From a phage, in sequence record PZ445443.1: a DNA stretch of 64,000 bases; one strand, 5' to 3'. This document shows, piece after piece, positions 487-60,012 of the stretch (position 1 is its first letter; the number at the start of each line of letters is the position of its first letter). The notes beneath the pieces were generated by a model. It saw nothing but the letters and a program-made list of their open reading frames with translations. It searched no databases and was not told the origin of the DNA. Position numbers and translations under genes: made by a program.

Positions 487-2558
487 TGGCAACAGCTGTT
501 TTTAAACCTTACCGTGATTACTCTACAATGGCTGCACAGTTTCATTACCGAACAGTTCAGGATACTGCCGTTCCTGGTAGGGATTATAATCATGTTGAGG
601 GCGATGTAACTATCCCAGTTGGGGCAACCAGTATTGAGATCCCAGTGGAAATTGTTGACAAATTACCCAACAGGTTGCCAAGAAGCTTCTTTATGGAGTT
701 TTCATCAAAATCTCAAGGAGTGATGATTGGAACACAAAGGGCGAAATGTACAATAGTTTCAGATGAGAATCTTGACAGGATATCTTGGGATACTGTTGAG
801 GAGAGAATGTTTCACCCAAGATATTGGGTTACAACCACTCAGCAGACTGAAAGTACCTGTATTGTTGCAGATAACAACTGTTGTATTAACCGTTTAGTGT
901 CAAGAACATATGGAGGTATGGCTGGGTGCATTTGGGAAACAGTTGACAAGTATGACCATTTCGGTATTGGGTTTGATGATCACTATGAGATGAGAAACAC
1001 CAAGCTTTGGTTCAGAATGTCAATAACCAACGCCAGCAACTTCTCCACTCCTGAAAAGATGATTATGACTGTAGACCTTGTTGATGGCACAATCATCTAT
1101 GTTCCTTTAGCTCAATATGCTGTCAGCATCTCAGAGGATAAAAATGTTGCAGAAATTCATATTGATTTTGAGGACTGCGTCGGGATGGACCAGAACAACA
1201 ACATGATGGGTGTTGATCCTCGGCAGGTGAGAAGGATTTTAATACCACTTATGCCTAAAGACTGGGTAAGTAATAGCACAGATCCAAGAACGGAAAATGT
1301 AGAGTGTGAGTTGCGCCTAGATCTGCTTCAGCCAGACACAGGCTGGAAAATGATGCAACTTAATAATATCCAGGTGAGAGAGCACGACGTTGGGATCTGC
1401 ACCGCATATGACGATATGTGGAACGTGTCCCCTTTAAGGGTGTTGAACAATATCAAGCGTCTGGGCTATACCGGAACCATAAACCATTATGTTGGTATGA
1501 GTCATTATTATGACTACACATGGTCAGGAACCCAATGGTCTATAAACAGAACAGGAGCGCTAAACGCTGCAGCTTATAAATGGCATGATGATTTTATGTA
1601 CAATGCCAAACGACATAACTTCGACGTTATGCAATCTGTAAGTTTTGAGCTTTTCAGCGATGCCTGCCCGTTGGAATGGACCCAAAGAGACTGGAACGAT
1701 AACTACGCTAAAACAGGGTATACACCTTGTAGCTACCTCCTGTCTCCAACCATTGAAGAGGGTATGAATTTCCTTACTGCAGTATTTAAGAATTTTGCAT
1801 CAGCCGCTATGAGAAACAACCTGCCAGTGATTATGCAGGTTGGTGAACCGTGGTGGTGGTACAATACCGATACTCGTAGACCTTGTATTTATGATTACCC
1901 TACAAAACAGGCGTTTTATGATGAGACAGGCGAGTATGCATTAGATATTGGGACTATTGACGATCCTAAAACTGGCGGTGTTTACGACAAGTATGTAGCA
2001 TTTTGTCGTGGTAAGCTTGGCGCTCGTATTGCGGCTATTTCAAAGGCAATAAAAGCACACGCTGCATCAGCTCAGATGACAGCTTTGCTGTTTTTCCCAA
2101 CCATCATGGAAACCGAGCTTACGCAAAAGCTGAACCTTGCTGACCAATATAAAAAGGAAGCAGGTGCTCTTGATTTCTTCTGCACCGAGTGCTACGATTG
2201 GGTGATGCAGGGAGGTATTGAAAAGGCAAAAGAGTCTGTAAACATACCTATCGTTAAGTTAGGTTGGCAACCGTCTGAAATACAATACCTTGCAGGGTTC
2301 GTTCCTAGTAAAGAGCTTGCTCCGGTATATGGCTACGACCCAACCAGGAATTACCAAGAATTTTTATGGAGATGTATCTGCGGAAACATGGCAACCATAG
2401 AGTATAGATACCCTGAGGTAAAACAGTATGTGTGGGCATACCCGCAAGTAATGTCTGACAGCATCACTGTTACAGCCAGAGATTCTACCGTGCTTCATAT
2501 GGGGCAGGTTGCTCTGAAAGGGTATGTAGAAGATGTTGTCCCTCCAGACTTCTCATAA
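486..2558 (+). CDS. tail/baseplate-associated structural protein (690 aa), function unknown
   Basis: 690-aa ORF; AGGAGG at 474-479; translationally coupled to upstream ORF; immediately upstream of fibre genes. Confidence 0.5.
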   Translation: MATAVFKPYRDYSTMAAQFHYRTVQDTAVPGRDYNHVEGDVTIPVGATSIEIPVEIVDKLPNRLPRSFFMEFSSKSQGVMIGTQRAKCTIVSDENLDRISWDTVEERMFHPRYWVTTTQQTESTCIVADNNCCINRLVSRTYGGMAGCIWETVDKYDHFGIGFDDHYEMRNTKLWFRMSITNASNFSTPEKMIMTVDLVDGTIIYVPLAQYAVSISEDKNVAEIHIDFEDCVGMDQNNNMMGVDPRQVRRILIPLMPKDWVSNSTDPRTENVECELRLDLLQPDTGWKMMQLNNIQVREHDVGICTAYDDMWNVSPLRVLNNIKRLGYTGTINHYVGMSHYYDYTWSGTQWSINRTGALNAAAYKWHDDFMYNAKRHNFDVMQSVSFELFSDACPLEWTQRDWNDNYAKTGYTPCSYLLSPTIEEGMNFLTAVFKNFASAAMRNNLPVIMQVGEPWWWYNTDTRRPCIYDYPTKQAFYDETGEYALDIGTIDDPKTGGVYDKYVAFCRGKLGARIAAISKAIKAHAASAQMTALLFFPTIMETELTQKLNLADQYKKEAGALDFFCTECYDWVMQGGIEKAKESVNIPIVKLGWQPSEIQYLAGFVPSKELAPVYGYDPTRNYQEFLWRCICGNMATIEYRYPEVKQYVWAYPQVMSDSITVTARDSTVLHMGQVALKGYVEDVVPPDFS

Positions 2559-2570
2559 TCAGGAGATAAA

Positions 2571-3611
2571 ATGTCAAAACCTAGTTTTCCATTAGAGATT
2601 TGGGCAGAGGAGGATCAGGTTCTGCCTAACACCCACAGACAGAACAGGCTACGCCCGATTGATGATTTGTGGAGAAAAGGTTGGGATCTTGGTCAAAAGC
2701 CATCCTGTGAAGAACTTAACTATATTTTCAATATGCTCGGAACTTGGGCAAAATACATTGCTGACGAGCAGATCCCCGCTCAAGAAGGCCGTTATCTGGT
2801 ACGTGATAATAACTTGAGCGATCTTTTGAACATCCCTGTTGCCCGTAGAAACCTTGGGATTATCACTAAGGAAGAGGCAGACGCCAGGTATGTAAAAGTT
2901 ACAGGTGATACAATGACAGGCCCCTTGGGGTTGCAACGTATCAACTTTAAAGCTGCCGAGACAGATAAGGCTTGGATAGAGACAACTATTGGCCCAGATA
3001 AGACAACTCTCGACTTTGGGTTAAGTGATAATACCGGGTCGTTTGATGATGGTGGTACATCTACAGTAGATGCGTTTCGTTGGAGATTCCAGCCAACTCA
3101 GCCGGATATTAATCCAGAGTTCACTTTGATGTACCTTAACGCGATCACGGCTAATCGTGCGCTGTTGAAAGTGGTAGGCAATGTTGAAGTTGTCGATAAC
3201 ATGAGGTGCAATAACCTTACTATCAGCAATACAGCAACATTCACCAACTGTAATGTGGCTAGTCAGTTGACGGCTGGGTCAGTATATGTTAATGGTGGTG
3301 CAAGTTGTGACAGTATGGTTGTAAGAAGCCAGCACTGTGTTGTCGGTAACAGAAATGTGGTGCGCTCCGTGAATGGAGTGACGGCTAACGGTAACGGTGA
3401 TGTAACGATCACTATCCCGCAGACAGGTGTGCAAGACATCAGAATCGGTGCAAGACTTGTGGACGGCGTTTCTGAATCTCCAATCCGCAACGGCTACGTT
3501 GTCACAGGCTGGCATTTCGGTGACAAAAAAGAGATGCGTGGTTCAACCTACTGGGCAGGACCTTTACAAAAACTTGTAAATGGTCAATGGATCACTGTTA
3601 ATTATGCATAG
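2571..3611 (+). CDS. tail fibre protein, paralog 1
   Basis: 346 aa; RBS AGGAGA; N-terminal ~200 aa and C-terminal QKLVNGQWITVNYA shared with ORF 4626..5669; followed by Tfa-like gene. Confidence 0.7.
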   Translation: MSKPSFPLEIWAEEDQVLPNTHRQNRLRPIDDLWRKGWDLGQKPSCEELNYIFNMLGTWAKYIADEQIPAQEGRYLVRDNNLSDLLNIPVARRNLGIITKEEADARYVKVTGDTMTGPLGLQRINFKAAETDKAWIETTIGPDKTTLDFGLSDNTGSFDDGGTSTVDAFRWRFQPTQPDINPEFTLMYLNAITANRALLKVVGNVEVVDNMRCNNLTISNTATFTNCNVASQLTAGSVYVNGGASCDSMVVRSQHCVVGNRNVVRSVNGVTANGNGDVTITIPQTGVQDIRIGARLVDGVSESPIRNGYVVTGWHFGDKKEMRGSTYWAGPLQKLVNGQWITVNYA

Positions 3612-32901: not shown

Positions 32902-33666
32902 TTGAAATTTATCTACAAAGAACACTACCACAAAGGTGTTGTGTGGAGTCTATTTGACGGGTCTGGTGGTGCAGTCATTGACTGGGCAAAAGCTGGGTAC
33001 CTGTGCCTGTGCTTTAATGCAGAAGGTGCTGATCACGGCAGTTATGCAGAGGTTATAACCGATCATCCCAACATTCACTATGTGGATTATTGGATTGACC
33101 CATGGTTCCCTCAGGAAACTTTTTGCATGTACCCAGCTCCAGACTTTATTCTTGCATTTCCTCCGTGCACGCATTTAGCGGTATCAGGTGCTGCACATTT
33201 TAAGAAAAAGCTGGCTAAGGACCCCATGATCCAAATTAATGCTGTAAAGGATGCTCGGGTTGCGGAAGAGCTGGGAGAGATTTACGATTGCCCGTGGCAT
33301 GTAGAGAATCCTGTGGGTGTTATGTCCACACTGTGGCGTAAACCTGATTACCGTTTTCATCCTTCTGACTATGGTGGGTATTTACCGGAGGATGATGTAA
33401 ACCCTTGGTTTCCTGAATTTATAGCTCCACGTGATGCCTATCCAAAAATAACTTGCGGCTGGATAGGTAATGGATTTATAATCCCGCCCACAAAACCTGT
33501 CCCGCAAATAGTTGACGCGGTTAGCGGGTATTCCATGCAACACGCCAAGCTGGGTGGAAAGAGTGCAAGAACGAAGATGATTCGAAGCCTCACACCACGT
33601 GGCTGGGCAAAAGCCGTATTCCTGGCAAACGAGCCTGTAGTAAGGAGCAGAATTAATGGGAAGTAA
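32902..33666 (+). CDS. DNA (cytosine-5) methyltransferase-like protein, short form (TTG start)
   Basis: LFDGSGG (motif I-like), FPPCTHLAVSG (PC motif IV-like), HVENPVG (ENV motif VI-like); AGGAGA 7 nt before TTG 32902; track GTG 32872 lies inside terminator hairpin. Confidence 0.5.
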   Translation: MKFIYKEHYHKGVVWSLFDGSGGAVIDWAKAGYLCLCFNAEGADHGSYAEVITDHPNIHYVDYWIDPWFPQETFCMYPAPDFILAFPPCTHLAVSGAAHFKKKLAKDPMIQINAVKDARVAEELGEIYDCPWHVENPVGVMSTLWRKPDYRFHPSDYGGYLPEDDVNPWFPEFIAPRDAYPKITCGWIGNGFIIPPTKPVPQIVDAVSGYSMQHAKLGGKSARTKMIRSLTPRGWAKAVFLANEPVVRSRINGK

Positions 33667-35734
33667 ATTTATGGCATCTGCATACAACCGTTTCGGTGAG
33701 CCAAACCCGAAAGCAACTAAGTATAAAAGTGGGGGAAGTGTGAAACGAGACTATCGTGATGAAAAAGAAGTTGAAACTGTAGAGACTGTTTTAGAAAATA
33801 CTAAAATTGTCCCTGTCCCACAACAAAATATCGGTCTGATGGCTGCACAATATTTTGGTGTGCGATCAGCATTGTCACAAGAAGACGGTGTGACAGTCAC
33901 TGCAACATATTTCCCATATTACGACCGCTACGGAAATCTGTCCGGTTTCAAAAAGCGTGACTGGACGATTCCTAAAGAGCAAAGGGGCCATTTCTCAGTT
34001 GTTGGCATAGTAAAGGCTAACTCTCAGATGTTTGGGCAAAAGCTGTGTGCATCTTCCAACAACCGTAAGCAAATTAACGTTTGTGAGGGGGAAGGTGATG
34101 TTATTGCAGCATGGCAGGCTGCATATCAGATACAAGTAAAAGGGATTCTCACCAACGCTAAAGCCCCGGCAAAGGTGAAGCAGTGGGCTAAAGAGGTCCA
34201 GGACGGGATCGACGCAGTTATCAACGGTGGTGATCTGGCAGGAAAACCCTGCCTGCCTTTTGTTGGAATTAACTGTGGATGTGCAAACGCAGTAGATACT
34301 TTTGCAAACAATGAGAAGTTTATCCGTAGCTATGGAACAGTTGTGCTGGCAATGGATAACGATGCAGCTAACGAGGTAGAGAAGCAAAAACACGTCATTA
34401 AAGGTGTTGAGGCCACGCACAATATCGCAGCATTTTTGATGGCCGATAACGTTTACCACGTAGAATACCCTGGTGAAGTAAACGACCCTGACGGTGTAAA
34501 AGATATCCGAGACATGCTGAAGGCTAAAAAGCTGGAAGATATTGTCAACATGTTCCGGCACCCTGTTAAATATGTGCCTGATGCTGTGTCGGATTTAGAA
34601 GACTTCTCTATCGAGTCTTTGCGGAAAAAGACTTCCAACGGGGTAGATATCAGCGCAGAGTTCCCAAAACTGCAAAAAATGCTAAAAGGCTTGCACAAAG
34701 GGACACTCGTAATGCTTACAGGTCCGTCAGGTGGCGGTAAAACAACCGTAGCTAAAAAACTGGAACACTGTATTGCAAGATACCTAATGGACCCGACATG
34801 TCCGAAGGCCGATGACTACGAAGAGGATGATCGTCTATGCATGATCCATCTTGAGGAGGACCCAGAGGAAGCAATTAACTCCTTGTATGCAAACCAGTTA
34901 GGGTTTGATGTTAAAGAGTTTGTTGAAGATCCTAGCCAGTTTTTAACTGATCAAGAACACGCAGAGATTCACCAATCATGGGCAAAAGCTGGAAAAATCA
35001 AAGTGTTCAAACATTTCGGATCTATTCCGGTGGACGAGTTGATTACTAAGCTTAAGCAAATGGTTTGCCTGTACCATTGTCGTTATATTGTACTGGATCA
35101 CCTGTCCATGGTAATTTCAGGGCTTAATGTTAAGGATGAGCGAAAAGAACTGGACATGGCTATGACCCAACTGGCTGCGTTTTGTAAGCAGTTTAACGTG
35201 TTTATCTTGGTGATCGCTCACCTCAAACGTACAGAGATTGTGCCTCCTAAGGACAAGGATGGTAACCCGTTACCTTTCTGGTATCCTGTGCGAAAAGAGA
35301 ATTTGCGAGGATCGGCGGGGCTTGAACAGTTGAGTTGGGTAGTCATAGGTGTCGAGGCCGAAGAAATGGTGGATCGTTCTCGTGGACGTGTCCGTCTGGT
35401 AGGTCTTAAAAACCGTCCAGCAAAAGCTCTAGGTATTGCTGACACTTTGGTTATGGACCCGCACACAGGTAAGTTCCATGATGCCAGTAATTGGTACTGG
35501 GACAAAGAAATGCAAATGTTTACAGATGGAGAAGGTGGGGAGGTTGTTTGGAGACCTCAGGCTATGTTTGAGGATCAGGAGCATGCAGTTGTAGAAACAC
35601 CTATGGGCAAGGTTGTGGCTGATAAGGTTGTAACTCCTACTGTTAAGCCTGTTGACACGCAGGAAGAACTCCAGTACGATGATCCGTCCTCTGACCATGT
35701 TCCTGGTTTTGAGGATGATGAAACACCTTTTTAA
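33656..35734 (+). CDS. primase-helicase (Toprim primase fused to DnaB/gp4-like helicase)
   Basis: Toprim-like CEGEGD and AMDNDAAN; Walker A GPSGGGKTT; RBS AAGGAG. Confidence 0.8.
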   Translation: MGSKFMASAYNRFGEPNPKATKYKSGGSVKRDYRDEKEVETVETVLENTKIVPVPQQNIGLMAAQYFGVRSALSQEDGVTVTATYFPYYDRYGNLSGFKKRDWTIPKEQRGHFSVVGIVKANSQMFGQKLCASSNNRKQINVCEGEGDVIAAWQAAYQIQVKGILTNAKAPAKVKQWAKEVQDGIDAVINGGDLAGKPCLPFVGINCGCANAVDTFANNEKFIRSYGTVVLAMDNDAANEVEKQKHVIKGVEATHNIAAFLMADNVYHVEYPGEVNDPDGVKDIRDMLKAKKLEDIVNMFRHPVKYVPDAVSDLEDFSIESLRKKTSNGVDISAEFPKLQKMLKGLHKGTLVMLTGPSGGGKTTVAKKLEHCIARYLMDPTCPKADDYEEDDRLCMIHLEEDPEEAINSLYANQLGFDVKEFVEDPSQFLTDQEHAEIHQSWAKAGKIKVFKHFGSIPVDELITKLKQMVCLYHCRYIVLDHLSMVISGLNVKDERKELDMAMTQLAAFCKQFNVFILVIAHLKRTEIVPPKDKDGNPLPFWYPVRKENLRGSAGLEQLSWVVIGVEAEEMVDRSRGRVRLVGLKNRPAKALGIADTLVMDPHTGKFHDASNWYWDKEMQMFTDGEGGEVVWRPQAMFEDQEHAVVETPMGKVVADKVVTPTVKPVDTQEELQYDDPSSDHVPGFEDDETPF

Positions 35735-35792: not shown

Positions 35793-38570
35793 ATGAGCAT
35801 GTGGTCTTTCGATTTTGAGTCATCCGGTTTGCTGGAAGACCCAGATCTTTATTATCACTGCGGCCTGTTTAAAGAGCTGAATAAGAACCGTTTTATGCTG
35901 TTCCTTCCTCTAAATGACCGCACACACTACTCCGAGGAGGATATAGAGAAGGCTAAGAACTTTATTCTGGCAAAGAAAACTCTTTATAAAGATTTTGAAG
36001 TTCGCATAGCAGATTTTTCGGAGTTAGAAGGTTGGCTTACAGGCAATTCCGACTGGTCACCAACAGCTTTGAACTGCCATAACTGCTACAGTTATGACTT
36101 TATGCTGATGGAAAGATTATCCGGTATTCATTTTGATATGTTCCGTGATCCTAAATGCATGGGGACTATCAACGACCACCAGGTCAACCTGTTTGATACG
36201 TTGGCGATGAGCCGAATCTTATGGCCTGATCGCCCTTTACCAAAAGGTTGTCCGGACTCTGTATTCAACCCGGTTACTAAGAAAATGCAGCCTGTCGGTC
36301 CTCACGGCCTTATGGCATGGGGCTACGCCCTTGGTAACCAGAAAGTTCAAATTGATGACTGGCGCGATCTTCCGTTGTGGAAGTATGTGGATCGTGTATT
36401 CGAGGACGTTATCATCCAGGAGCTGCTCTGGAAAGAGCTGGTAGCGGAATCAAAAGGTGTATTCTACGGCAAATCTGACATGCAGAACTTTATGTACGAT
36501 CCTGCCAAAGAGAAGCCGAAAGGGTTCAAGAAGATCACCTGGAAGAACGCATTACGCCGAGGCATGCTGCAGCACTTCCTGATGGAGCTGCAGGCCCGTC
36601 AGGGTGTGTATTTTGACATAGATGGGGCTATTGCTTTACGTGACCGTTGCGATGCGTGGATGAAAGAAATCGCTGATCGTGTTGAACCGCAACTACCTTT
36701 AAAAGAGCTGTCAATGTCTCAGCGGCCCAAGTTCCCTGAAAAGCCGTTTAACCAAGATGGGACAATCTCCAATAATGGTTGGAAATGGTTAAAAGATAAG
36801 CTTGGCTATCCTGTAGATATGAGCGCTTTAGAGTTCAAAGCCCCGCCTAAGCGAGCATTTACCTCTACAGGAGATGTCAGTAAGATGGGGATAAAATGGT
36901 GTGAAGAGATGGGCTGCAAAGACCCCGATAAGATGGCTGATTTCTTGAGAGGCTATATTAAGGGCACCTCCACACCACAACCTTTACCTAAAGAGCTAAT
37001 GGATCAGGCAATAAGTGATCTACAGCAGAAGCGAATGCCGGACTGCAAGATACCTATGAAAATCAGCAACCAGGACGACATTAAGCGATACCTGATCAGT
37101 GCTGGTTGGCTTCCGACAATGTGGAGAACTAAGGATGTAACTAAAGACAGCAAGAAGAAAGCTCTACCTGATGCAGATGTTGATGCACGAGTATATGCAT
37201 ATATGGACGAGCTTTTAGAGTCAGAGTATTGTGACCTGATTATCAACTTCTGGAACAAAACTGATGCTAAGTTCCAGACAACCGTGCACAAGTTCCGAAG
37301 CTTTCCTAACTCCGAAAGGATTAAAAAGGAAGTATTCGGGAAAATACGTAGAAAAGCTAGGGCACTTATTACTTCTCCGCAACTGAAAGATACGTTTGGA
37401 CACCTATGCCCTAATCTTGAAAAATTGAACGGAGAGATGGCTAAAGATATCGTCTTGTGGTTATCATTGCGAAACCGCAGATCGGTACTTGATCCAATCA
37501 AGGAGGATAAGGTTGATACTGGTCTTCTTAATCACCCACGTTTGAAGATTGACCATAAGCTTCCTGCTAAAAGTTCTGGGTTAACAAACACTTCCCGACA
37601 GAAACACAGTATTTGTGCAAACATGCCTAAACCATCTCCTAAAGTGGTTATGGGTAAAGAGATGCGTAGTCTGTGGGGTGTTCCTCCAGGATACTTTGAG
37701 ATCGGTATTGACGGGTCCAACTTAGAGCAGCTTATCGGGGCTTGGGGTGCCTTTGAGTTCGACAACGGCCTGTATTACGATGTTGTAAGTAACGGGGACG
37801 CACACCAAAACAATGCTGAGGCATATACAAAAGTAGCAGGTAGAGAGGTGTCTCGTAACGACGGTAAACCTATCACGTATGGGGTTATGTATGGGGCACA
37901 AAAAGATAAAGTTGCAGATATGCTGGACATCTCTCCAGAGTTGGGACAAAGGGTAATCGATGCACTCTGGGATGCCAACCCTGGTCTTAAGGGGCGTAAA
38001 GAAGATCTGGAGAAATTCTGGGAAGCAACGGGTAAGAAGTTTATCTACTCTTTTGATGGTCATGCTATCTGGACCCGATCTAAACACTCTTTACTTAATG
38101 CATACCAACAAAATGGCGGCGCATCGTTGTGTGACTTAGTTGGGATACTCATGCACCATCAAATGGTGAAGCGTGGGTGGTACGATGAAGGTGTTCGTCG
38201 TATTATCTATTACCATGACGAATATCAGCTTCAAGTCCCTGACACACCGAAGTATAAGACTGTGTACACCTTCGACACAATCGAAGAACTGGAAGCATTT
38301 AAGGCAGAGCAGGAGGCCAAACTTCATGTGTTCGACGGTCATAAGTACAAAAAGGCACGCAAGGATGAGGACGGAAACGAAGTGGTTGACAGAGACGGAA
38401 ACACGGTGTACGATCCTATCCTGAACGATGACGGAAAGCTTGAACTTATCTGGAGCCCTGTGGGTGAAATGGTGGTGCATTGCTTCTGGCAAGCTTCTAA
38501 AATGATGGGCGTCCCGTTCCAGATCACAGGTGAATACCTGTGTGGTCGTAATTGGGGTGATTGTCACTAA
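35793..38570 (+). CDS. DNA polymerase, family A, with 3'-5' exonuclease domain
   Basis: 925 aa; Exo I-like FDFES; motif B-like KPITYGVMYG; motif C-like YHDEYQ; RBS AAGGAGA. Confidence 0.85.
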   Translation: MSMWSFDFESSGLLEDPDLYYHCGLFKELNKNRFMLFLPLNDRTHYSEEDIEKAKNFILAKKTLYKDFEVRIADFSELEGWLTGNSDWSPTALNCHNCYSYDFMLMERLSGIHFDMFRDPKCMGTINDHQVNLFDTLAMSRILWPDRPLPKGCPDSVFNPVTKKMQPVGPHGLMAWGYALGNQKVQIDDWRDLPLWKYVDRVFEDVIIQELLWKELVAESKGVFYGKSDMQNFMYDPAKEKPKGFKKITWKNALRRGMLQHFLMELQARQGVYFDIDGAIALRDRCDAWMKEIADRVEPQLPLKELSMSQRPKFPEKPFNQDGTISNNGWKWLKDKLGYPVDMSALEFKAPPKRAFTSTGDVSKMGIKWCEEMGCKDPDKMADFLRGYIKGTSTPQPLPKELMDQAISDLQQKRMPDCKIPMKISNQDDIKRYLISAGWLPTMWRTKDVTKDSKKKALPDADVDARVYAYMDELLESEYCDLIINFWNKTDAKFQTTVHKFRSFPNSERIKKEVFGKIRRKARALITSPQLKDTFGHLCPNLEKLNGEMAKDIVLWLSLRNRRSVLDPIKEDKVDTGLLNHPRLKIDHKLPAKSSGLTNTSRQKHSICANMPKPSPKVVMGKEMRSLWGVPPGYFEIGIDGSNLEQLIGAWGAFEFDNGLYYDVVSNGDAHQNNAEAYTKVAGREVSRNDGKPITYGVMYGAQKDKVADMLDISPELGQRVIDALWDANPGLKGRKEDLEKFWEATGKKFIYSFDGHAIWTRSKHSLLNAYQQNGGASLCDLVGILMHHQMVKRGWYDEGVRRIIYYHDEYQLQVPDTPKYKTVYTFDTIEELEAFKAEQEAKLHVFDGHKYKKARKDEDGNEVVDRDGNTVYDPILNDDGKLELIWSPVGEMVVHCFWQASKMMGVPFQITGEYLCGRNWGDCH

Positions 38571-45839: not shown

Positions 45840-46031
45840 ATGGTAATTTTTAACCGGGATGGTATCATAGTTAGACAGCACCCGTTCCTTGAATACTATC
45901 AAATTGAGCAATGGTGCTACGGGGATTGCAGTCACTCCTATGGGCAAAGTTGGGGATATCGTACAGTTTTTGAATCCACAGACCTTGACAAAGTAAAACA
46001 GAAAGTTTTAGAACTTCTTAACAACAAGTGA
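45840..46031 (+). CDS. hypothetical protein (63 aa)
   Basis: ORF track; 30 nt downstream of promoter. Confidence 0.5.
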   Translation: MVIFNRDGIIVRQHPFLEYYQIEQWCYGDCSHSYGQSWGYRTVFESTDLDKVKQKVLELLNNK

Positions 46032-46041
46032 GTATCGTGCC

Positions 46042-46374
46042 ATGGTAACATTGGAAAGACGTAAAGCTATTGCCGCCACACTGGCAGACATCTTTTGGGA
46101 TTGTAATTTAAAATCTACCCGAAATTGTGGTGCATCTGTAGATGTATTATTCCCACGGCCTACTATTGTTGCAATGGGCAACCTGCTCGATGTGGTATAT
46201 GGAGCATGGGACAAGGAAGGTGGATTCTATATCTGGCAACCTGACTACGGGACTTGGAAAGAGGTTAGTGGTTCTTCGGACTTCACTCCTGCAGTGGCTA
46301 AAATGGATGGCTGGAAAATCTATGTCGGTAACGACATGGAACTGAAAGGCGAAATTGTTTACTGGTTACCTTAA
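46042..46374 (+). CDS. hypothetical protein (110 aa)
   Basis: ORF track. Confidence 0.5.
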   Translation: MVTLERRKAIAATLADIFWDCNLKSTRNCGASVDVLFPRPTIVAMGNLLDVVYGAWDKEGGFYIWQPDYGTWKEVSGSSDFTPAVAKMDGWKIYVGNDMELKGEIVYWLP

Positions 46375-46395
46375 GAAAGTCCAGGAGATAAAGTT

Positions 46396-46641
46396 ATGAA
46401 CAAAGGGTGGACATTTGTAGACGGCGTTAAAAACATGCCTCTAGGAAAGTATATTGTAGCCATGGCAGATGAGAATGGCAAGGTGGATTTCGGAGTTTGC
46501 GAGGTTGTTCTTGCAGGATCTGGTGACTATGCTCACAAAACTGGGATAATTAACGGTCATTTCTACTTTGATTACAACCCTGTTGTGGCGTATATGGCTA
46601 TGCCAGAGTTAGAGCTCCCAAAGGAGGGTGCAGATGTTTAA
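46396..46641 (+). CDS. hypothetical small protein (81 aa)
   Basis: ORF track; RBS AGGAGA. Confidence 0.5.
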   Translation: MNKGWTFVDGVKNMPLGKYIVAMADENGKVDFGVCEVVLAGSGDYAHKTGIINGHFYFDYNPVVAYMAMPELELPKEGADV

Positions 46642-46831
46642 GCTTAAATCTGCATGGAACATCGCTGTAGGGGACGAGATCCGCATCCCAGGTGGAAAGA
46701 CCATTATGAAGATATCACGTATCGAGTATGAAGGTGATCGTGTATTTCATATCTTTGCAGAAGATGGTCGAGAAATTTATATACAGGCAGGCTCTCACAT
46801 CTATATCCGTAAGAAAGGGGACGACAAATGA
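46634..46831 (+). CDS. hypothetical small protein (65 aa)
   Basis: ATG 46634 with AAGGAGGG 5 nt upstream. Confidence 0.5.
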   Translation: MFKLKSAWNIAVGDEIRIPGGKTIMKISRIEYEGDRVFHIFAEDGREIYIQAGSHIYIRKKGDDK

Positions 46832-47160
46832 CAGAGATCATCGTTTCAACTGCAGGGTATGTATTCCTGACAATCATTGCGCTGGCTATTCTGGTGGCGG
46901 TGTATGGATTTGTTATCCTGCCTATTCTTGAGACATTTAGTTTGTGTCGGTGTTGGAGAAAAGCTTACGGACCACAACCGTGGAAAGACTGGTTCCATTT
47001 GGTGCGTATAGCGTTCTCTTATGCCTATGACCACTCCAGCAGTGCATGCGTAACCGGGTACCATGCCTACAACTGGAACTGGGAAGGTGTGGGAAGGTGG
47101 ACTGTTACAAAAACTATACCCTTGCGTTTATATAAAGGAAAGAACAAACTGGGCACCTGA
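46828..47160 (+). CDS. predicted membrane protein (110 aa)
   Basis: ORF track; hydrophobic segment VFLTIIALAILVAVYGFVILPIL; ATGA coupling. Confidence 0.5.
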   Translation: MTEIIVSTAGYVFLTIIALAILVAVYGFVILPILETFSLCRCWRKAYGPQPWKDWFHLVRIAFSYAYDHSSSACVTGYHAYNWNWEGVGRWTVTKTIPLRLYKGKNKLGT

Positions 47161-47164
47161 TATT

Positions 47165-47700
47165 TTTAAATTGCCAAGTTGCCAGAAATCAGGAGAATTT
47201 CTAAAATGGATTTTCTCCTGATATTTTGAACACATAGATATTTTAAAATTCTTAGAAAATCAGAAAATGGATCGAAAACTAAAATGGATTTTTTCAACAC
47301 AGGCGCGGAAAATTGTGCCAATCTATCTAGCCGTTTGCACCATATTCGAGATCACCGTTCCAGATTTCCTACACATACACACCTCTCCACCATACCTTTC
47401 TCCACTCACTCTTAGTGATTTATGACGGAAAACCCATCACTATCTTGAAGTTGCGGTGCAGTTTTCCAAGTACTCGATCTGTTTTTCGTTTCAAAGATTG
47501 AATTTTCTGAAAATTTTTCTCGATAAATTTCTCAGTACTCGATCTGTTTTTCGTTTTCTGAATCGGATTTTCTGGAAATCGTTCCGGCTCTCGACCTGAA
47601 ATTTTTGGGGACGAAATCGATTTTTCGTTTTCAGAAATGGATTTTTAAAATTTCTATATAGGAATATTTTAGTGGATACTATTTTATAGGAAATTGTTAC
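47165..47700. repeat. AT-rich non-coding region with inverted and direct repeats (origin-like)
   Basis: Inverted repeat TCAGGAGAA/TTCTCCTGA (47189-47221); 23-bp direct repeat AGTACTCGATCTGTTTTTCGTTT at 47469 and 47534; recurring AAAATGGAT and TTTCGTTTTC motifs; no ORF. Confidence 0.45.
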
Positions 47701-47759
47701 GGAGGGTAATTAGCGTGCTAATTAAATTTATTAAATGTGAGGAGTTCTCATTTAGAATT

Positions 47760-48110
47760 TTGAATGATAATCATTCTCGTTTGCAGAATAACGGGCAGGC
47801 CCGGTGATTGTCTCCCGGCCCCTGTTGCCCCGGCTTGTTATTATAGTATCACACAGGACAAAGAAAGCAAGGATTTTTTGCATAAATTTTTAAATGATAA
47901 TGATAACCGTTCTCATTTTATGCAGCGCCCATCCCCGGTGGTTGTCTCCCCCGTCACCGGTGCCTGCCGTCCTTTCGATAGGTATATTGTGCTACCTGGC
48001 GGGGCCGCTGTCAACACCTTTCAAAAAAAAAATTATAACCAGGTGCGCCCACTGCCAGTACCTGGCGGGGCCAACCTGGCAGGTCCGCGCTATAAAGTGA
48101 ACAGATGAAG
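47760..48110. repeat. two related GC-rich structured elements in an AT-rich intergenic region
   Basis: Both units share AATGATAAT...TTCTC-TTT-GCAG...CCGGTG-TTGTCTCCC; further TGGCGGGGCC repeats at ~47998 and ~48062; track ORF 47764..48108 is Pro/Gly-rich and coincides with the repeats. Confidence 0.35.
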
Positions 48111-48302
48111 AAGAGGTACATAAATGAAAGGTAATATGATCCCCTGGAAAATGTAGCTATTAATGACGCTGAGGCTATCGCCCTGGTTGAAAAGGCTATG
48201 GCGGGAGCGTTGGAACATAAAGAAGAGTACGAAAAAATGATGGTTAACCTGGCAGGGGCGGCGGCTGGAGAATTCTGCCCAAAAAATAATTTTAACTAAT
48301 GG

Positions 48303-48331
48303 TTGACAGCTCGGACAGTTCTTGTTATTCT
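48303..48331 (+). promoter_or_regulatory. sigma70-like promoter (weak -10)
   Basis: TTGACA (48303-48308), 17-nt spacer, TATTCT. Confidence 0.35.
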
Positions 48332-48383
48332 TATCCTCGCAAGGTGAACAACACCACACTAATTAACAGAGAGGATAAAAATC

Positions 48384-48581
48384 ATGAACGCCTACGGAAT
48401 CAAAGTACGTCGCAGCACTCGCCAGGTGGTCACCGATCAAATGGTTTGCCGGGTGGATGTAACCATCAACAACGGGCAAGGCCTTTATAAATTTCGTCGC
48501 GGTCATAGCTATACCCTGCAACAGCTTAACCGTTGCTCCCTGACAAAAGGTCAGATCAACCACTGGTTTAATAAAAAATAA
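48384..48581 (+). CDS. early small protein (65 aa)
   Basis: ORF track; RBS GAGGA. Confidence 0.5.
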   Translation: MNAYGIKVRRSTRQVVTDQMVCRVDVTINNGQGLYKFRRGHSYTLQQLNRCSLTKGQINHWFNKK

Positions 48582-48584
48582 ATA

Positions 48585-48613
48585 TTGACATGTGGTCTGA
48601 CACAAAATATACT
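48585..48613 (+). promoter_or_regulatory. sigma70-type promoter
   Basis: TTGACA (48585-48590), 17-nt spacer, TATACT (48608-48613). Confidence 0.6.
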
Positions 48614-48645
48614 GAAATCACAAAAGACACTAAGAGGATAAAATC

Positions 48646-49044
48646 ATGAAAACCACAACCTTTAATTTTGATAATGCCGACTTCTCTTTTTCTGATGTTA
48701 AAAGCTGCCGCCGTGATCGCGGATTCTACAAGGCCTATAATCTGGTGGGCCTGGACGATGACAATAATTTGCACGAAGTAGCTGAGATCCGGTATTATGC
48801 CGCCGCCAGCGGTAACACTCATTACTGTGTATTTTGGATTCACGACAACAAGAACAATAAGTACGGTTATACTGGCGGCAAGGCGAGCGGTCACGGTTAT
48901 GATAAAGCCAACGCTGCACTTGAAAGCGCATTAAGTGCCATGGGAATCACTGCCGACGGCTGGATCTATGAAGAAGAGTTTTTGGCGGCACTTGCTAACC
49001 ACTTGGGCTATAAAAAGCACATTGTAACATGCGCCCACGAATAA
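48646..49044 (+). CDS. early protein (132 aa)
   Basis: ORF track; RBS AAGAGGA. Confidence 0.55.
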   Translation: MKTTTFNFDNADFSFSDVKSCRRDRGFYKAYNLVGLDDDNNLHEVAEIRYYAAASGNTHYCVFWIHDNKNNKYGYTGGKASGHGYDKANAALESALSAMGITADGWIYEEEFLAALANHLGYKKHIVTCAHE

Positions 49045-49058
49045 AAAAAAAAAAATTA

Positions 49059-49086
49059 TTGACACGCTGCAAAATTCAAGTAAACT
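49059..49086 (+). promoter_or_regulatory. sigma70-type promoter
   Basis: TTGACA (49059-49064), 16-nt spacer, TAAACT (49081-49086); preceded by A-tract. Confidence 0.55.
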
Positions 49087-49096
49087 AGGCACAAAA

Positions 49097-49114
49097 GGCG
49101 GGAAACATCCCGCC
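49097..49114 (+). promoter_or_regulatory. conserved 5' leader hairpin (GGCGGG-loop-CCCGCC)
   Basis: GGCGGGaaacatCCCGCC ~11 nt after the -10 and before the SD; related copies at 49770, 51619, 55721. Confidence 0.45.
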
Positions 49115-49131
49115 AACACAGAGGAAAAGCT

Positions 49132-49527
49132 ATGAATAAGAACGTACGCCGCATCATGAACGAACTGGCAAACGATGAAAAAATTATTGACATGCATTTG
49201 GTCAACATTTGCCGCCGTTGTGTAACATATAACAACCGCGCCGCAAAAGCGCGTGAGATGAACGCAAAAGGCACCTTAAAGCCCTTTCAGGTGGTTGTAA
49301 AATCTATAACTAATGCAGCAGGCCAGGCGCATGATCACAACAACGAGAGCACTAATATTGATCCGTCTTACGTAATGAAACGGATCCGGACTTGCAAGAA
49401 TAAAGAGCAGGTGTATAACGTCATAGATTGGCTTGATTCCATGGGCGACGTGGTTTATAATAGGTTTTCTGCAGCTATCGAGATCCAGCTTGACAGGTTG
49501 GACGGGAAAGTACTAAAAACTTATTAA
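49132..49527 (+). CDS. early protein (131 aa)
   Basis: ORF track; RBS AGAGGAAAAG. Confidence 0.55.
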   Translation: MNKNVRRIMNELANDEKIIDMHLVNICRRCVTYNNRAAKAREMNAKGTLKPFQVVVKSITNAAGQAHDHNNESTNIDPSYVMKRIRTCKNKEQVYNVIDWLDSMGDVVYNRFSAAIEIQLDRLDGKVLKTY

Positions 49528-59350: not shown

Positions 59351-59490
59351 GGTGTGTAAACAGTCAATCATGTAAATGGTTAGCATGTGAACAATCAGGA
59401 ATGTAAACAATCCAGTGTGTAAACTAATAGGTGTGTAAAAGTGTCATGTTGTGTCAGTTAGGTCACATTATGTCATATTGTGTCAGACAA
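59351..59490. repeat. iteron-like array of TGTAAAC / TGTCA(G/T) short repeats
   Basis: GTGTGTAAACAG, CATGTAAATGG, CATGTGAACAA, AATGTAAACAA, GTGTGTAAACTA, GTGTGTAAAAG at ~16-bp spacing, then TGTCAT/TGTCAG repeats. Confidence 0.45.
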
Positions 59491-60012
59491 GTTTTTCTCC
59501 TCTTTGTCAAGTGCTGCATGAAAAATTTACAATCTGGTATGGTAGCATTTTTGCGGCCCTGTTTACATTCAGGGGTGTATGTATAATCCTTGTTGTGTGG
59601 GCGTTTAGACGTCTGGACGGTCAGAAGTCTGCAGGTTAATATCTAATCTATTGGCTGCTAACTATATCCCACACAAATAGTAAGAAATATGATTGTTATA
59701 TGCGTAAACTGTAACTCATGTTATCAATCCCTGTATGTATCGCCAGTGGTGCGCATAATGGGTATTATGTTAAATTGCCCGTAATGATAAAGGTTCTCAC
59801 AATGATAGGTATTCTCATTCACCCCCACAAAATAGATTGCAAATGTTGTGCCACTGTGTGAACGGCCTAGCCTATTAATTTGCCTCACTGCCTCGATATT
59901 TGAGAATTGTTATAAGAATGAGAAGTATTCCCATTTCGTCCGCCTGGCAGCACTCCTGTAGGTCAGGTCAAAATCGTGGTAGAACTGGACCTGTTCAGAT
60001 ATTTCTGGCTGA

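What the first reader, a model, noticed from the sequence alone, without database searches (positions are those of the whole stretch)
47165..47700. AT-rich origin-like region with inverted and direct repeats
A ~550-bp ORF-free, AT-rich segment between the replication module and the early cluster contains a 9-bp inverted repeat with 15-nt loop (47189-47221), a 23-bp direct repeat AGTACTCGATCTGTTTTTCGTTT (47469 and 47534) and several AAAATGGAT/TTTCGTTTTC iterons. This is typical of a replication origin or packaging signal.
Basis: partly seen in the sequence, partly recalled or inferred. Interest (0 to 1): 0.5.

Follow-up and report, generated by a model that had tools for sequence, protein, structure and literature searches.

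The report
Essential non-coding origin-like module, rV5-like phage
The flagged AT-rich repeats are real and lie in a roughly 1-kb non-coding block that rV5-like and phi92-like phages all keep and that tolerates almost no transposon insertions in a close relative; it is not the packaging end, and it is most likely the still-unmapped origin of DNA replication.

Summary
The window is a Vequintavirus (rV5-like coliphage).

The packaging reading fails. The 459-bp terminal repeat determined for LL12 and Gotham maps to window 59486-59944, 12 kb away.

The finding is the left two-thirds of a ~960-bp non-coding module (47161-48120). Six other genera from two subfamilies share its layout:
- an AT-rich block;
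- a variable C-rich spacer;
- exactly three direct repeats, 63-78 bp apart;
- Fur-box-like palindromes inside promoter-like sites.

Segment 47460-48000 is better conserved than the flanking genes. The small ORFs annotated there are truncated or frameshifted among relatives.

In published transposon data for phage Bas54, 0 of 11 TA sites are hit at window 47646-47707. This is also the least stable duplex in all 64 kb. The flanking genes are saturated with insertions.

Best explanation, p≈0.5: a replication origin made of iteron-like units plus an unwinding element, possibly activated by transcription. The left part probably terminates upstream transcription.

Rivals are an operator/promoter/sRNA hub, a T5-like DNA-entry boundary, and a transposon cold spot. 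No replication data exist, no initiator was identified, and base skew gives no support.

The parts
47161..48120 (.). Whole non-coding module, between the stop of the 110-aa ORF (46828-47160) and the small ORF ending at 48299.
   Evidence: No ORF is conserved in 13 Vequintavirus genomes. The same ~960-bp gap with the same order of elements occurs in Certrevirus CR9. The layout is shared by PVP-SE1, KpS8, Av-05, phi92 and tuntematon.
47188..47222 (+). Hairpin: 10-bp stem and 15-nt loop. The 5' arm is Shine-Dalgarno-like (AAGGAGGA in most relatives). The loop carries the first AAAATGGATTTT motif and a T-rich tail follows. Probably an RNA hairpin that ends or attenuates upstream + strand transcripts.
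   Evidence: For the 7 core pairs, all 56 cells pair across 8 distinct sequences. Three pairs change on both sides. None of 500 shuffles reached the observed pairing or covariation score. The G.U cells pair only on the + strand.
47158..47244 (+). Three copies of YTGATATTT (47158, 47219, 47236) in the left AT-rich block.
   Evidence: families D8, D9. The same motif is repeated at the left edge of the module in CR9 (4 copies) and phi92 (2 copies). GATATTTTAAAATT recurs in KpS8.
47204..47293 (+). Left set of box-3-like motifs: AAATGGATTTTC at 47204, AAATGGATCG at 47265, AAATGGATTTTT at 47282.
   Evidence: These are conserved islands (47195-47226 and 47237-47297) within an otherwise variable stretch. 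PVP-SE1 has GAAATGGTTTT twice in the same relative position.
47331..47410 (+). C-rich, G-poor tract inside the variable spacer. Either a rut-like site for + strand RNA or a G-rich stretch of minus-strand RNA.
   Evidence: It has the highest C-minus-G excess of any 80-nt window in the 64 kb (0.325), although the surrounding + strand has G>C. The composition (C 31-36, G 6-11 of ~87 nt) is kept in all 13 genomes while the sequence diverges.
47469..47533 (+). Iteron-like unit A: GTACTCGATC, then TTTTCGTTTC, then GATTGAATTTTC.
   Evidence: Overlaps the annotated Bas54 ORF bas54_0100: 1 of 3 TA sites hit, mean count 5 against about 200 in neighbours.
47534..47607 (+). Iteron-like unit B: GTACTCGATC, then TTTTCGTTTTC, then GAATCGGATTTTC.
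   Evidence: 98% column identity across 13 genomes. Homologous to the CR9 repeat GGTCTCGATCGACTTTTCGTTTTCTAAATCGTATTTTC.
47608..47660 (+). Iteron-like unit C. Its first box is degenerate and it contains the palindrome ACGAAA-TCGATT-TTTCGT, then GAAATGGATTTTT.
   Evidence: Lies within bas54_0101, classed 'Essential'.
47636..47735 (.). Candidate DNA unwinding element.
   Evidence: The 60-bp window starting at 47640 is the least stable duplex of the whole 64 kb (-62.3 kcal/mol; mean -80.2, sd 4.4). The 100-bp window at 47636 ranks second. All 11 TA sites of Bas54 that map to 47646-47707 carry no transposon insertion.
47760..47815 (+). Promoter-like site TTGAAT-N18-CAGAAT with a Fur-box-like palindrome in its spacer (47760-47778; 15 of 19 to GATAATGATAATCATTATC), followed by AACGGGCAGGCCCGGTGATTGTCTCC.
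   Evidence: This is the most widely conserved sequence of the module: 74-83% identity to CR9, phiTE, KP13-16, tuntematon and phi92. It lies in bas54_0102: 5 of 15 TA sites hit, 'Strong fitness defect'.
47896..47914 (+). Second Fur-box-like palindrome (16 of 19), in a second copy of the palindrome-plus-GC-rich unit (134-136 nt repeat).
   Evidence: the only match with <=3 mismatches in the window, against 0.04 expected. families D5 and D6.
47986..48014 (-). Sigma-70-like promoter on the minus strand, TTGACA-17-CACAAT, with a GC-rich spacer. It points leftward toward the AT-rich element.
   Evidence: Equivalent minus-strand promoters (TTGACA or TTGCAA, a 17-18 nt GC-rich spacer, a TATAAT-like hexamer) are present at the homologous place in all eight other phages aligned. 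No transcription start data exist.

Best explanation
The finding is part of an essential, non-coding, cis-acting module (window 47161-48120). It is shared by Vequintavirinae and by the two Stephanstirmvirinae genera examined. Most likely it is the origin of DNA replication, or one of them.

Proposed working (inferred unless marked otherwise):
1. + strand transcripts from the upstream gene array are stopped at the left border. The stops are the 47188-47222 RNA hairpin with its U-rich tail and the unusually C-rich, G-poor tract at 47331-47410. This would insulate the core from read-through.
2. Three phased iteron-like units (47469, 47534, 47608; 65 and 74 bp apart) and a second set of the same short motif at 47204-47293 bind an unidentified protein.
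3. The adjacent 47636-47735 segment, the least stable duplex of the window, opens. The phage's T7-type replisome loads there (DnaB-like helicase at 33656-35734, family-A polymerase at 35793-38570).
4. Promoter-like sites on both strands immediately to the right (47760-48014) carry Fur-box-like operators. They may activate or prime initiation by transcription, as at the T7 primary origin, T4 oriF/oriG or lambda ori.

Shown here: the repeats, their conservation and geometry, the absence of conserved coding, the low duplex stability, and the location away from the genome termini.

Shown by others in a close relative: intolerance to transposon insertion.

Inferred: that replication starts here, which protein binds, and the roles of transcription and of the left border.
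For: 1. Identity and location. The window is 88-96% identical to Vequintavirus genomes. The terminal repeat is 12 kb away, so the module's essentiality is not a packaging effect.

2. Conservation. Segment 47460-48000 shows 91-98% column identity, above the flanking coding sequence. Segment 47160-47460 shows 74-88%.

3. Non-coding. The annotated ORFs differ between records. They are truncated, lack starts or are frameshifted among 13 genomes. The bas54_0101-like ORF is 18, 28 or 34 aa; the bas54_0102-like ORF is 53-132 aa. ORFs from the motif ATGs are 7-99 aa.

4. Architecture kept across six other genera. There are three direct repeats with start-to-start spacing of 78+63 (CR9), 75+67 (PVP-SE1), 74+67 (KpS8), 75+67 (Av-05) and 67+75 (phi92), against 65+74 here. 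In tuntematon the tool detected only two copies of a 72-nt repeat, 138 nt apart. In all six the repeats lie next to a palindrome cluster.

5. Experiment in Bas54 (= MaxBurger MZ501093), bioRxiv 10.1101/2025.11.20.689424, Extended Data Table 8:
- bas54_0101: 0 of 11 TA sites hit, 'Essential';
- bas54_0100: 1 of 3;
- bas54_0102: 5 of 15, 'Strong fitness defect';
- mean counts 0, 5 and 12.7, against 150-560 in neighbours;
- flanking genes 0093-0099 and 0104-0109 are 73-100% saturated.
The TA-site counts 3, 11 and 15 are reproduced exactly from the sequence, which fixes the mapping to the window.

6. The 11 unhit sites coincide with the least stable 60-bp duplex of the 64 kb.

7. The repeat segment shows no sign of structured RNA: z = +0.22 and -0.13, and no Rfam match.

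8. A T7-type replisome is encoded upstream. The rV5 genome paper could not locate an origin (PMC3606486).
Against: - No replication data exist: no marker frequency, 2D gels or autonomous replication test.
- No cognate initiator gene is adjacent. The neighbouring proteins have no informative Pfam or PHROG match.
- DnaA-box-like sites are not conserved. GATC is not enriched here.
- GC and AT skew change at the module in the direction opposite to that expected for a bidirectional origin. The change is better explained by gene class. The rV5 authors likewise saw only transcription-linked skew.
- In relatives the least stable duplex is near the module but not always next to the third repeat.
- A second insertion-free non-coding region, the 2.5 kb around the terminal repeat, could hold the origin instead or as well.
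- Absence of insertions could partly reflect a Himar1 cold spot in AT-rich, protein-bound DNA.
- Per-site transposon data for the left part (window 47161-47454) were not available.
Confidence: 0.5

Rival explanations
1. Regulatory hub rather than origin. The module would be an array of operators and promoters, with a small non-coding RNA in most genera. It would control the switch between the upstream replication and middle genes and the downstream early-type genes. The repeats would be binding sites for a transcription factor. The module would be essential because the temporal programme collapses without it.
For: - Fur-box-like palindromes sit in the spacers of promoter-like sites (47760-47789). 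They occur as arrays of 3-5 with 29-nt spacing in CR9, tuntematon and phi92.
- Minus-strand sigma-70-like promoters are conserved in eight other phages. In the seven aligned outside Vequintavirus they precede a conserved stretch of about 125 nt.
- The same palindrome occurs inside promoter-like sites in the terminal repeat.
- Strong + strand promoters are dense downstream.
- KP13-16 carries TTGACA-TTTCGGATTTTAAAATC-CATAAT twice.
Against: - The segment with zero insertions (47646-47707) is the AT-rich stretch between the repeats and the palindromes, not the promoter and palindrome part, which tolerates 5 of 15.
- Genes downstream (bas54_0104-0109) and upstream (0093-0099) are dispensable and saturated with insertions. 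Loss of a promoter serving them should therefore not be lethal.
- The repeat motifs are confined to this locus rather than spread over promoters.
- The repeats show no RNA structure signal.
Confidence: 0.22
2. DNA-entry or other DNA-handling boundary, comparable to the injection-stop region that ends the first-step-transfer segment of phage T5. The module would mark the inner edge of a terminal segment of small, mostly dispensable genes that enters or acts first.
For: - The module lies 12.2-12.8 kb from the physical end at 59944. That is about 8.9% of a 137-kb genome.
- The genes between it and the end are small, are preceded by many sigma-70-like promoters, and are almost all non-essential in Bas54.
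- The region is rich in direct and inverted repeats, as described for T5 (my recollection of the T5 literature, not checked here).
- It shares a palindrome with the terminal repeat.
Against: - Nothing is known of two-step DNA transfer in this group.
- The resemblance rests on position and repeat content only.
- The positions of the module relative to the true ends in the other genera were not determined.
Confidence: 0.07
3. The annotated small ORFs (bas54_0100, 0101 and 0102 and their counterparts) are real, and one of them is an essential small protein.
For: - They are annotated in several records. The HIDEN-SEQ table classes bas54_0101 as an essential gene.
- The 48-codon frame over units A and B stays open in 12 of 13 genomes.
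Against: - bas54_0101 has a TTG start and no ribosome-binding site. It is cut to 18 codons in this window and 28 in five genomes.
- The bas54_0100 frame lacks a start codon in most genomes, begins with TAG in NHEP1, and encodes low-complexity F/L/S text typical of T-rich DNA.
- The bas54_0102 frame ranges from 53 to 132 codons, is frameshifted in ev156, and runs across an A-run of variable length.
- CR9 keeps the nucleotide elements without these ORFs.
Confidence: 0.05
4. Packaging signal or genome terminus.
For: - The Fur-box-like palindrome of the module also occurs four times in the right part of the terminal repeat. The last copy ends about 10 nt from the physical end.
- A factor acting at the ends might therefore also bind here.
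Against: - The termini are at 59486-59944 (PMC6658697, PMC7471380).
- Apart from the palindrome, there is no sequence similarity between the module and the terminal region.
- No known packaging system recognises a site 12 kb from its cut.
Confidence: 0.03
5. Functionally neutral AT-rich spacer. The repeats would be slippage products, and the lack of transposon insertions a technical cold spot.
For: AT-rich, curved or nucleoid-protein-bound DNA can be under-hit by transposons. This is general knowledge and was not tested here.
Against: - Conservation is higher than in the flanking genes.
- The same three-unit geometry is kept in six other genera at protein identities near 40%.
- The stretch CGATCGGTTTTTC of unit 2 is identical in four genera.
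- TA-rich neighbours are hit normally.
Confidence: 0.03

Closest known systems
Primary origin of phage T7 (promoters phi1.1A/B followed by a 61-bp AT-rich region; established literature, from memory)
   Same: - Both phages use a replisome of a family-A polymerase plus a DnaB-like (gp4-type) helicase.
- Both have promoter-like sites next to a very AT-rich, easily melted segment.
- Both also have related elements near the genome ends. In T7 these are phiOL and phiOR; here it is the shared palindrome in the terminal repeat.
   Different: - There is no phage RNA polymerase here, so the promoters would be host sigma-70 type.
- T7 has no three-unit iteron array and no operator palindromes.
- The T7 primary origin is dispensable, whereas this segment takes no insertions in Bas54.
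- No primer or transcript data exist.
Iteron-type origins: lambda ori (four 19-bp dyad-symmetric repeats plus an AT-rich region), P1 oriR, theta plasmids (established literature, from memory)
   Same: - Direct repeats in one orientation lie beside an AT-rich unwinding region.
- 19-bp dyad-symmetric sites occur in arrays of 2-5 on the other side.
- The element is unique in the genome.
   Different: - The units are 63-78 bp apart rather than about 20.
- No initiator gene overlaps or adjoins the repeats.
- DnaA boxes and GATC clusters are not conserved.
T4 oriF(uvsY) and oriG(34) R-loop origins (established literature, from memory)
   Same: A promoter fires into a downstream unwinding element. 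Here the minus-strand promoter at 48014-47986, and a TATAAT at 47845-47840, point into 47735-47636. Further on, the leftward RNA would be G-rich (47410-47331), a feature that favours R-loops.
   Different: - The T4 origins are individually dispensable and have no iteron array.
- Promoter use here is unverified.
Vibrio phage ICP1 replication origins mapped by read coverage (PMC7145576)
   Same: - It is a myovirus with a related family-A polymerase (per PMC3606486).
- It starts bidirectional replication at an internal site and later uses a second site at a genome end.
- That matches the two insertion-free non-coding loci here: this module and the terminal-repeat region.
   Different: - No sequence or architectural counterpart was seen. 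ICP1 at 52-68 kb has no comparable ~1-kb gap.
- The ICP1 origin sequence itself is not defined in that paper.
Injection-stop region at the end of the first-step-transfer DNA of phage T5 (from memory)
   Same: It is a repeat- and palindrome-rich non-coding region about 8-9% from a genome end, bordering a block of small early genes.
   Different: - There is no evidence of two-step transfer in Vequintavirinae.
- No sequence comparison was made.

Membership tests
Iteron-type replication origin | Three or more direct repeats in one orientation, more than chance, confined to one locus | tested here: met
   Three 65-74-bp units and 5-6 copies of the short motif. None of 1000 local shuffles reached this, and there is no other cluster in the window.
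Iteron-type replication origin | Adjacent AT-rich DNA unwinding element | tested here: met
   The 60-bp window starting at 47640 is the least stable duplex of the 64 kb. This is only partly reproduced in other genera.
Iteron-type replication origin | Cognate initiator protein encoded at or next to the repeats | tested here: not met
   Neighbouring ORFs have no Pfam match and only 'unknown function' PHROGs. The CR9 'DNA binding protein' and the minus-strand ORF of phi92, Av-05 and PVP-SE1 have no homologue in the window.
Iteron-type replication origin | Host DnaA boxes or GATC clusters, as in oriC and P1 oriR | tested here: not met
   One 7-8 of 9 DnaA-like site at 47671-47679 is lost in the FV3 clade. 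GATC occurs 4 times in 536 bp against 4.6 per kb overall.
Iteron-type replication origin | Replication starts there, or the segment supports autonomous or phage-dependent replication | not testable with these tools
   Needs marker-frequency sequencing, 2D gels or a plasmid assay.
Transcription-primed origin (T7 / T4 oriF type) | Promoter directed into the AT-rich element | tested here: inconclusive
   Consensus matches exist on both strands. The minus-strand promoter is conserved across genera. There are no start-site data.
Transcription-primed origin (T7 / T4 oriF type) | T7-type replisome (family-A polymerase, gp4-like helicase) | tested here: met
   DNA_pol_A, DnaB_C and PIF1 domains are encoded at 28.5-38.6 kb.
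Packaging site / genome terminus | Coincides with or adjoins the physical ends of virion DNA | tested here: not met
   The terminal repeat maps to 59486-59944.
Fur box (for the palindromes just right of the finding) | Match to the 19-bp consensus GATAATGATAATCATTATC | tested here: met
   15 of 19 at 47760-47778 and 16 of 19 at 47896-47914. There is one match with <=3 mismatches against 0.04 expected. The phage version is TGAGAAT-n-ATTCTCA.
Fur box (for the palindromes just right of the finding) | Bound by Fur, with iron-dependent regulation | not testable with these tools
   Needs EMSA or ChIP, or infection of a fur mutant. A phage-encoded binder is equally possible.
Intrinsic terminator (for the 47188-47222 hairpin) | G+C-rich stem, short loop, U-run | tested here: inconclusive
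   The stem is supported by compensatory changes and is followed by TTTTGATATTT in most relatives. However, the loop is 15 nt and the terminator scan did not call it.
Structured non-coding RNA gene (for the repeat segment) | Folding energy below shuffles, or a match to a described family | tested here: not met
   z = +0.22 and -0.13. Rfam gives only chance-level matches.
Type III antitoxin-like RNA repeats (pseudo-ToxI of phiTE) | Tandem ~36-nt repeats resembling ToxI, at the phiTE escape locus | tested here: not met
   The phiTE locus is at 106.7 kb, between phiTE_202 and 203 (PMC3475682). The module homologue lies near 39.5 kb. The period and sequence also differ.

The most novel reading that the evidence does not exclude
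The module is the single essential origin of replication of two phage subfamilies. Its firing would be gated by an operator that is also built into the terminal repeat, ending about 10 nt from the genome end. One factor, possibly host Fur, would then couple replication start and end processing to the host's iron state. Under this reading, three 'essential hypothetical genes' in the Bas54 transposon map are one cis-acting element.
Probability: 0.12. Interest if true: 0.8.

Novelty: new variant of a known kind. Interest (0 to 1): 0.58.

Why it matters
- rV5-like and phi92-like phages are widely used in therapy and biocontrol cocktails. Their origin of replication has never been located; the rV5 genome paper tried and failed.
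- A defined, essential, roughly 300-500-bp cis element gives a direct target for marker-frequency and plasmid assays.
- It tells engineers where not to insert cargo.
- The shared Fur-like operator at the module and at the genome end is a testable lead to host-state control of a strictly lytic phage.

Tried and rejected
- Rfam: scans of the window (46000-49500) and of the CR9 module gave only chance-level matches.
- tRNAs: none in the window.
- RNA folding: both strands of 47455-47740 and 47740-48020 gave z-scores between +0.22 and -1.64, so no structured RNA.
- GATC enrichment: not present here.
- DnaA box: one weak site, not conserved.
- GC and AT skew: a shift at the module, but in the wrong direction for an origin.
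- Pseudo-ToxI antitoxin mimicry: that locus is elsewhere in phiTE.
- ICP1 around 60 kb: no comparable gap.
- E. coli genomes: no homologue, so the module was not captured from the host.
- Plasmids: the only hit is a 137.5-kb record that is itself a Vequintavirus genome.
- IMG/VR pattern scan: one contig only.
- Flanking proteins: Pfam and PHROG searches were uninformative.
- Per-TA-site transposon counts for the intergenic parts: the stored supplement is truncated, so only gene-level values were usable.
- Whether orthologous repeat units are more alike than paralogous ones: 0.77 against 0.75, no clear difference, so that argument was dropped.
- CRISPRi-ART paper: it contains no genome-wide data for the Vequintavirus EdH4.
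- phi92 genome paper: not held in the library.
Full report
**What the window is**

Window 46800-48300 matches 121 phage records. All but a few are Vequintavirus (rV5-like myoviruses of about 137 kb), at 88-96% identity. In rV5 itself the finding lies at about 117.0-117.7 kb, on the reverse strand of the record. It sits inside the long co-directional transcription unit '10-1-238-164' of the genome paper.

Upstream on the same strand are a PIF1-like helicase, a DNA methylase, a DnaB-like helicase and a family-A DNA polymerase (28.5-38.6 kb). About 9 kb of small ORFs follow. Downstream are more small ORFs preceded by many sigma-70-like promoters.

**The observation**

Everything described is there.
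- The inverted repeat has 10-bp arms (47188-47197 and 47213-47222) and a 15-nt loop.
- The 23-nt repeat at 47469 and 47534 is the head of a longer unit present three times, at 47469, 47534 and 47608 (spacing 65 and 74).
- AAATGGATTTTC with up to two mismatches occurs five times at 47204-47646, always on the + strand. None of 1000 dinucleotide-preserving shuffles of the region reached that number, and no such cluster exists elsewhere in the window.
- G+C is 34.5% against 43.6% for the window. There are two AT-rich blocks on either side of a spacer of ordinary composition.

**Not a packaging site**

[quoted passage not shown] Both repeats align at 95-96% to window 59486-59944. Records deposited with true ends break at the same boundary. 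The finding is 12 kb from there and lies between co-directional genes.

**Not coding**

Annotators disagree on which small ORFs to call in the gap. I traced each candidate frame through an alignment of 13 genomes.
- The frame over units A and B lacks a start codon in most genomes and begins with TAG in one.
- The frame over unit C and the AT-rich stretch is 18 codons here and 28 or 34 elsewhere.
- The frame over the palindromes ranges from 53 to 132 codons, with a frameshift in one genome.
- ORFs opening at the ATG inside the AAAATGGAT motifs are 3-99 codons long.

The non-coding gap runs from 47161 to about 48120.

**Conservation within the genus**

Column identity to the window is 74-88% over 47160-47460, with two conserved islands at 47195-47226 and 47237-47297. 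It is 91-98% over 47460-48000, higher than in the flanking genes. There are almost no indels. The hairpin lies in the more variable left part.

**Conservation beyond the genus**

The downstream 132-aa protein has about 40%-identical homologues in Certrevirus. Certrevirus CR9 has a 960-bp gap with the same order of elements:
- an AT-rich block with TGATATTT repeats;
- a C/A-rich spacer;
- three direct repeats 78 and 63 bp apart, GGTCTCGATCGnnTTTTCGTTTTCTAAATCGTATTTTC, recognisably the same unit as GTACTCGATCTGTTTTTCGTTTTCTGAATCGGATTTTC here;
- four 19-bp palindromes of the type AATGAGAATCGTTCTCATT;
- CAGAATAGCGGGCAGGTCCGGTGTTTGTCTCC, which is window 47784-47815.

PVP-SE1 (Seunavirus), KpS8 (Mydovirus) and Av-05 (Avunavirus) each have three such units, spaced 75+67, 74+67 and 75+67 bp. 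phi92 (subfamily Stephanstirmvirinae) has three units spaced 67+75 bp. Tuntematon, of the same subfamily, showed two copies of a 72-nt repeat 138 nt apart. The repeat sequence in these two differs from that of the Vequintavirinae, but the repeats hold the same position next to the same palindromes.

In the six genomes with three units, the distance from the first unit to the third is always 139-142 bp. The stretch CGATCGGTTTTTC of unit 2 is identical in four genera. Overall, however, orthologous units are not clearly more alike than paralogous ones (0.77 against 0.75).

**Experimental evidence from a close relative**

A preprint describing transposon-insertion sequencing of phages includes Bas54, which is phage MaxBurger (MZ501093). 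This is one of the genomes that matched the window. Its gene-level table gives the following.

| Bas54 ORF | Window coordinates | TA sites hit | Class | Mean count |
|---|---|---|---|---|
| bas54_0099 | 46828-47160 | 18 of 21 | Non-essential | 220 |
| bas54_0100 | 47453-47599 (units A, B) | 1 of 3 | not classified | 5 |
| bas54_0101 | 47605-47709 | 0 of 11 | Essential | 0 |
| bas54_0102 | 47764-48038 | 5 of 15 | Strong fitness defect | 12.7 |
| bas54_0103 | 48124-48300 | 12 of 14 | Intermediate | 152 |
| bas54_0104-0109 | downstream | 91-100% | Non-essential | 337-3479 where quoted |

I recomputed the TA sites from the sequence and obtained exactly 3, 11 and 15 for the three ORFs, so the mapping is secure. 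The 11 unhit sites fall at window 47646-47707.

The authors comment only on the other insertion-free non-coding region, the 2.5 kb between bas54_0134 and 0135. That region is the terminal-repeat region. Because the three 'genes' are not genes, the essential thing must be the DNA itself or an RNA made from it.

**Properties of the essential core**

The 60-bp window starting at 47640 is the least stable duplex of the entire 64 kb by nearest-neighbour energy: -62.3 kcal/mol, against a mean of -80.2 and an sd of 4.4. The 100-bp window at 47636 ranks second, behind one next to the terminal repeat.

Neither strand of 47455-47740 folds better than shuffled sequence. Rfam finds nothing. The short AT-rich palindromes inside the units change register from unit to unit, so I do not count them as covariation. 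This points to a function of the DNA rather than of a structured RNA.

**The left part**

The hairpin is real. Over seven core pairs, every one of 56 cells pairs in eight distinct sequences. Three pairs show changes on both sides. No shuffle reached the observed pairing or covariation score.

The G.U cells work only on the + strand, so this is an RNA hairpin of the rightward transcript. Its 5' arm is AAGGAGGA in most relatives and TTTTGATATTT follows it. I read it as a terminator or attenuator of upstream transcripts. The 15-nt loop is atypical, though, and the simple scan did not call it.

Downstream, 47331-47410 has the highest C-over-G excess of any 80-nt window in the 64 kb, in a strand that otherwise has G>C. 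This composition is kept in all 13 genomes while the sequence drifts. It fits a Rho-utilisation site for rightward RNA. Equally, it fits a G-rich stretch of leftward RNA.

**The right flank**

Each unit is a Fur-box-like palindrome followed by a GC-rich stretch.
- The palindromes match the 19-bp Fur consensus at 15 and 16 positions. Only one match with up to 3 mismatches occurs in the window, against 0.04 expected.
- The first palindrome sits in the 18-nt spacer of TTGAAT...CAGAAT. That arrangement is conserved in CR9 as TTGAAC...CAGAAT.
- On the minus strand, TTGACA-17-CACAAT at 48014-47986 points leftward.
- All eight other phages aligned have an equivalent minus-strand promoter with a GC-rich spacer. 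In the seven outside Vequintavirus it is followed by about 125 nt conserved at 80-84% across genera.

**An unexpected link to the genome end**

The degenerate palindrome TGAkAATnATTmTCA with up to two mismatches has 10 matches in the window, against 1.3 expected.
- Two are in the module.
- Four are in the right part of the terminal repeat, as two tandem pairs (59785 and 59803; 59901 and 59919).
- The last of these ends about 10 nt from the physical end.
- They are conserved in Gotham and LL12.

The same DNA-binding factor therefore probably acts at both loci. Whether it is host Fur or a phage protein cannot be decided here.

**Interpretation**

In a lytic phage, an essential non-coding element that is not the packaging site and serves no essential neighbouring gene is most simply an origin of replication. 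Three features fit that class:
- phased direct repeats;
- an adjoining segment that melts most easily;
- operator-bearing promoter-like sites alongside.

With a T7-type replisome and no phage RNA polymerase, I favour a transcription-assisted origin of the T7, T4-oriF or lambda kind. ICP1, a myovirus with a related polymerase, uses an internal origin early and a site at a genome end late (PMC7145576). That parallels the two insertion-free non-coding loci here, although I found no sequence counterpart in ICP1.

Several points count against the origin reading:
- there are no replication data;
- no initiator gene was found nearby;
- there are no conserved DnaA boxes or GATC clusters;
- base skews do not support it;
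- the unwinding element is less sharply placed in other genera;
- a transposon cold spot cannot be fully excluded.

I put the origin reading at about 0.5. I put the weaker statement, that this is an essential conserved cis-acting element, at about 0.85.

The main rival is an operator/promoter/sRNA hub (about 0.2). Smaller shares go to a T5-like DNA-entry boundary (the module lies 8.9% from the end), to real small proteins, to packaging and to a neutral spacer.

**Novelty**

I found no paper that describes this module. The rV5 paper reports that skew analysis did not reveal an origin. The transposon study lists the three ORFs as genes. The kind of element is known. New here are:
- the architecture of three units 63-78 bp apart, with the first-to-third distance fixed at about 140 bp;
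- arrays of Fur-like operators;
- the same operator at the genome end;
- conservation across two subfamilies.

Noticed in passing
window 59785-59933 (inside the terminal repeat 59486-59944): Four Fur-box-like palindromes lie in the terminal repeat as two tandem pairs 18 nt apart. The last ends about 10 nt from the physical genome end. They are conserved in Gotham and LL12 and are the same motif as at 47765 and 47901. In the whole window there are 10 matches against 1.3 expected.
   Followed up: partly
L019:4382-4545, L021:2501-2657, L020, L023, L024, L025, L017, L016; window 47835-48014: A minus-strand sigma-70-like promoter (TTGACA or TTGCAA, GC-rich 17-18 nt spacer, TATAAT-like hexamer) is followed by about 125 nt conserved at 80-84% across Certrevirus, Seunavirus, Mydovirus, Avunavirus and the two Stephanstirmvirinae genera. 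In most records nothing is annotated under it. It is a candidate small RNA with no Rfam match. Vequintavirus has a diverged version in two copies.
   Followed up: partly
window 47331-47410: This tract has the highest C-over-G excess of the whole 64 kb on a strand that otherwise has G>C. The composition is conserved while the sequence diverges. It could be a rut-like site or a leftward G-rich transcript.
   Followed up: partly
window about 47160 to 48120 as a boundary: Base skews of the + strand change across the module. GC skew is 0.126 to the left and 0.05-0.07 to the right. AT skew is 0.07-0.08 to the left and 0.13-0.14 to the right. This suggests two gene populations of different history or expression class.
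   Followed up: no
L013:794-1438 (phage 241Ecol014PP), inserted at window ~47148: One relative carries an extra 645-bp ORF immediately upstream of the module. PVP-SE1 has an HNH endonuclease gene in the equivalent position (L023:696-1283). The left border therefore tolerates, or attracts, insertions.
   Followed up: no
window 48023-48032 and 48073: An A10 run varies in length among relatives (-1 to +6). A 49-nt segment with CCTGGCAGG-type repeats is present in most relatives but absent here.
   Followed up: no
window 59442-59457 and 59471-59486: The direct repeat TGTCATRTTGTGTCAG ends exactly at the left boundary of the terminal repeat. It is a candidate terminase recognition or cleavage element.
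   Followed up: no
phage records MG0656xx: Sixteen to eighteen records named 'Campylobacter phage' with host C. jejuni are 82-92% identical to E. coli Vequintavirus genomes across this region. The host labels are probably wrong.
   Followed up: no
plasmid record CP057073.1: A 137,565-bp E. coli 'plasmid' from cattle faeces matches the module at 89% over 96% of the query and has the size of a Vequintavirus genome.
   Followed up: no
L017:1002-1046 and 1188-1232 (Klebsiella phage KP13-16): Two copies of TTGACA-TTTCGGATTTTAAAATC-CATAAT occur here. This is a consensus promoter whose spacer holds the palindrome GGATTTTAAAATCC, related to the ATGGATTTTTAAAATTTC stretch of the window (47637-47654).
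   Followed up: no
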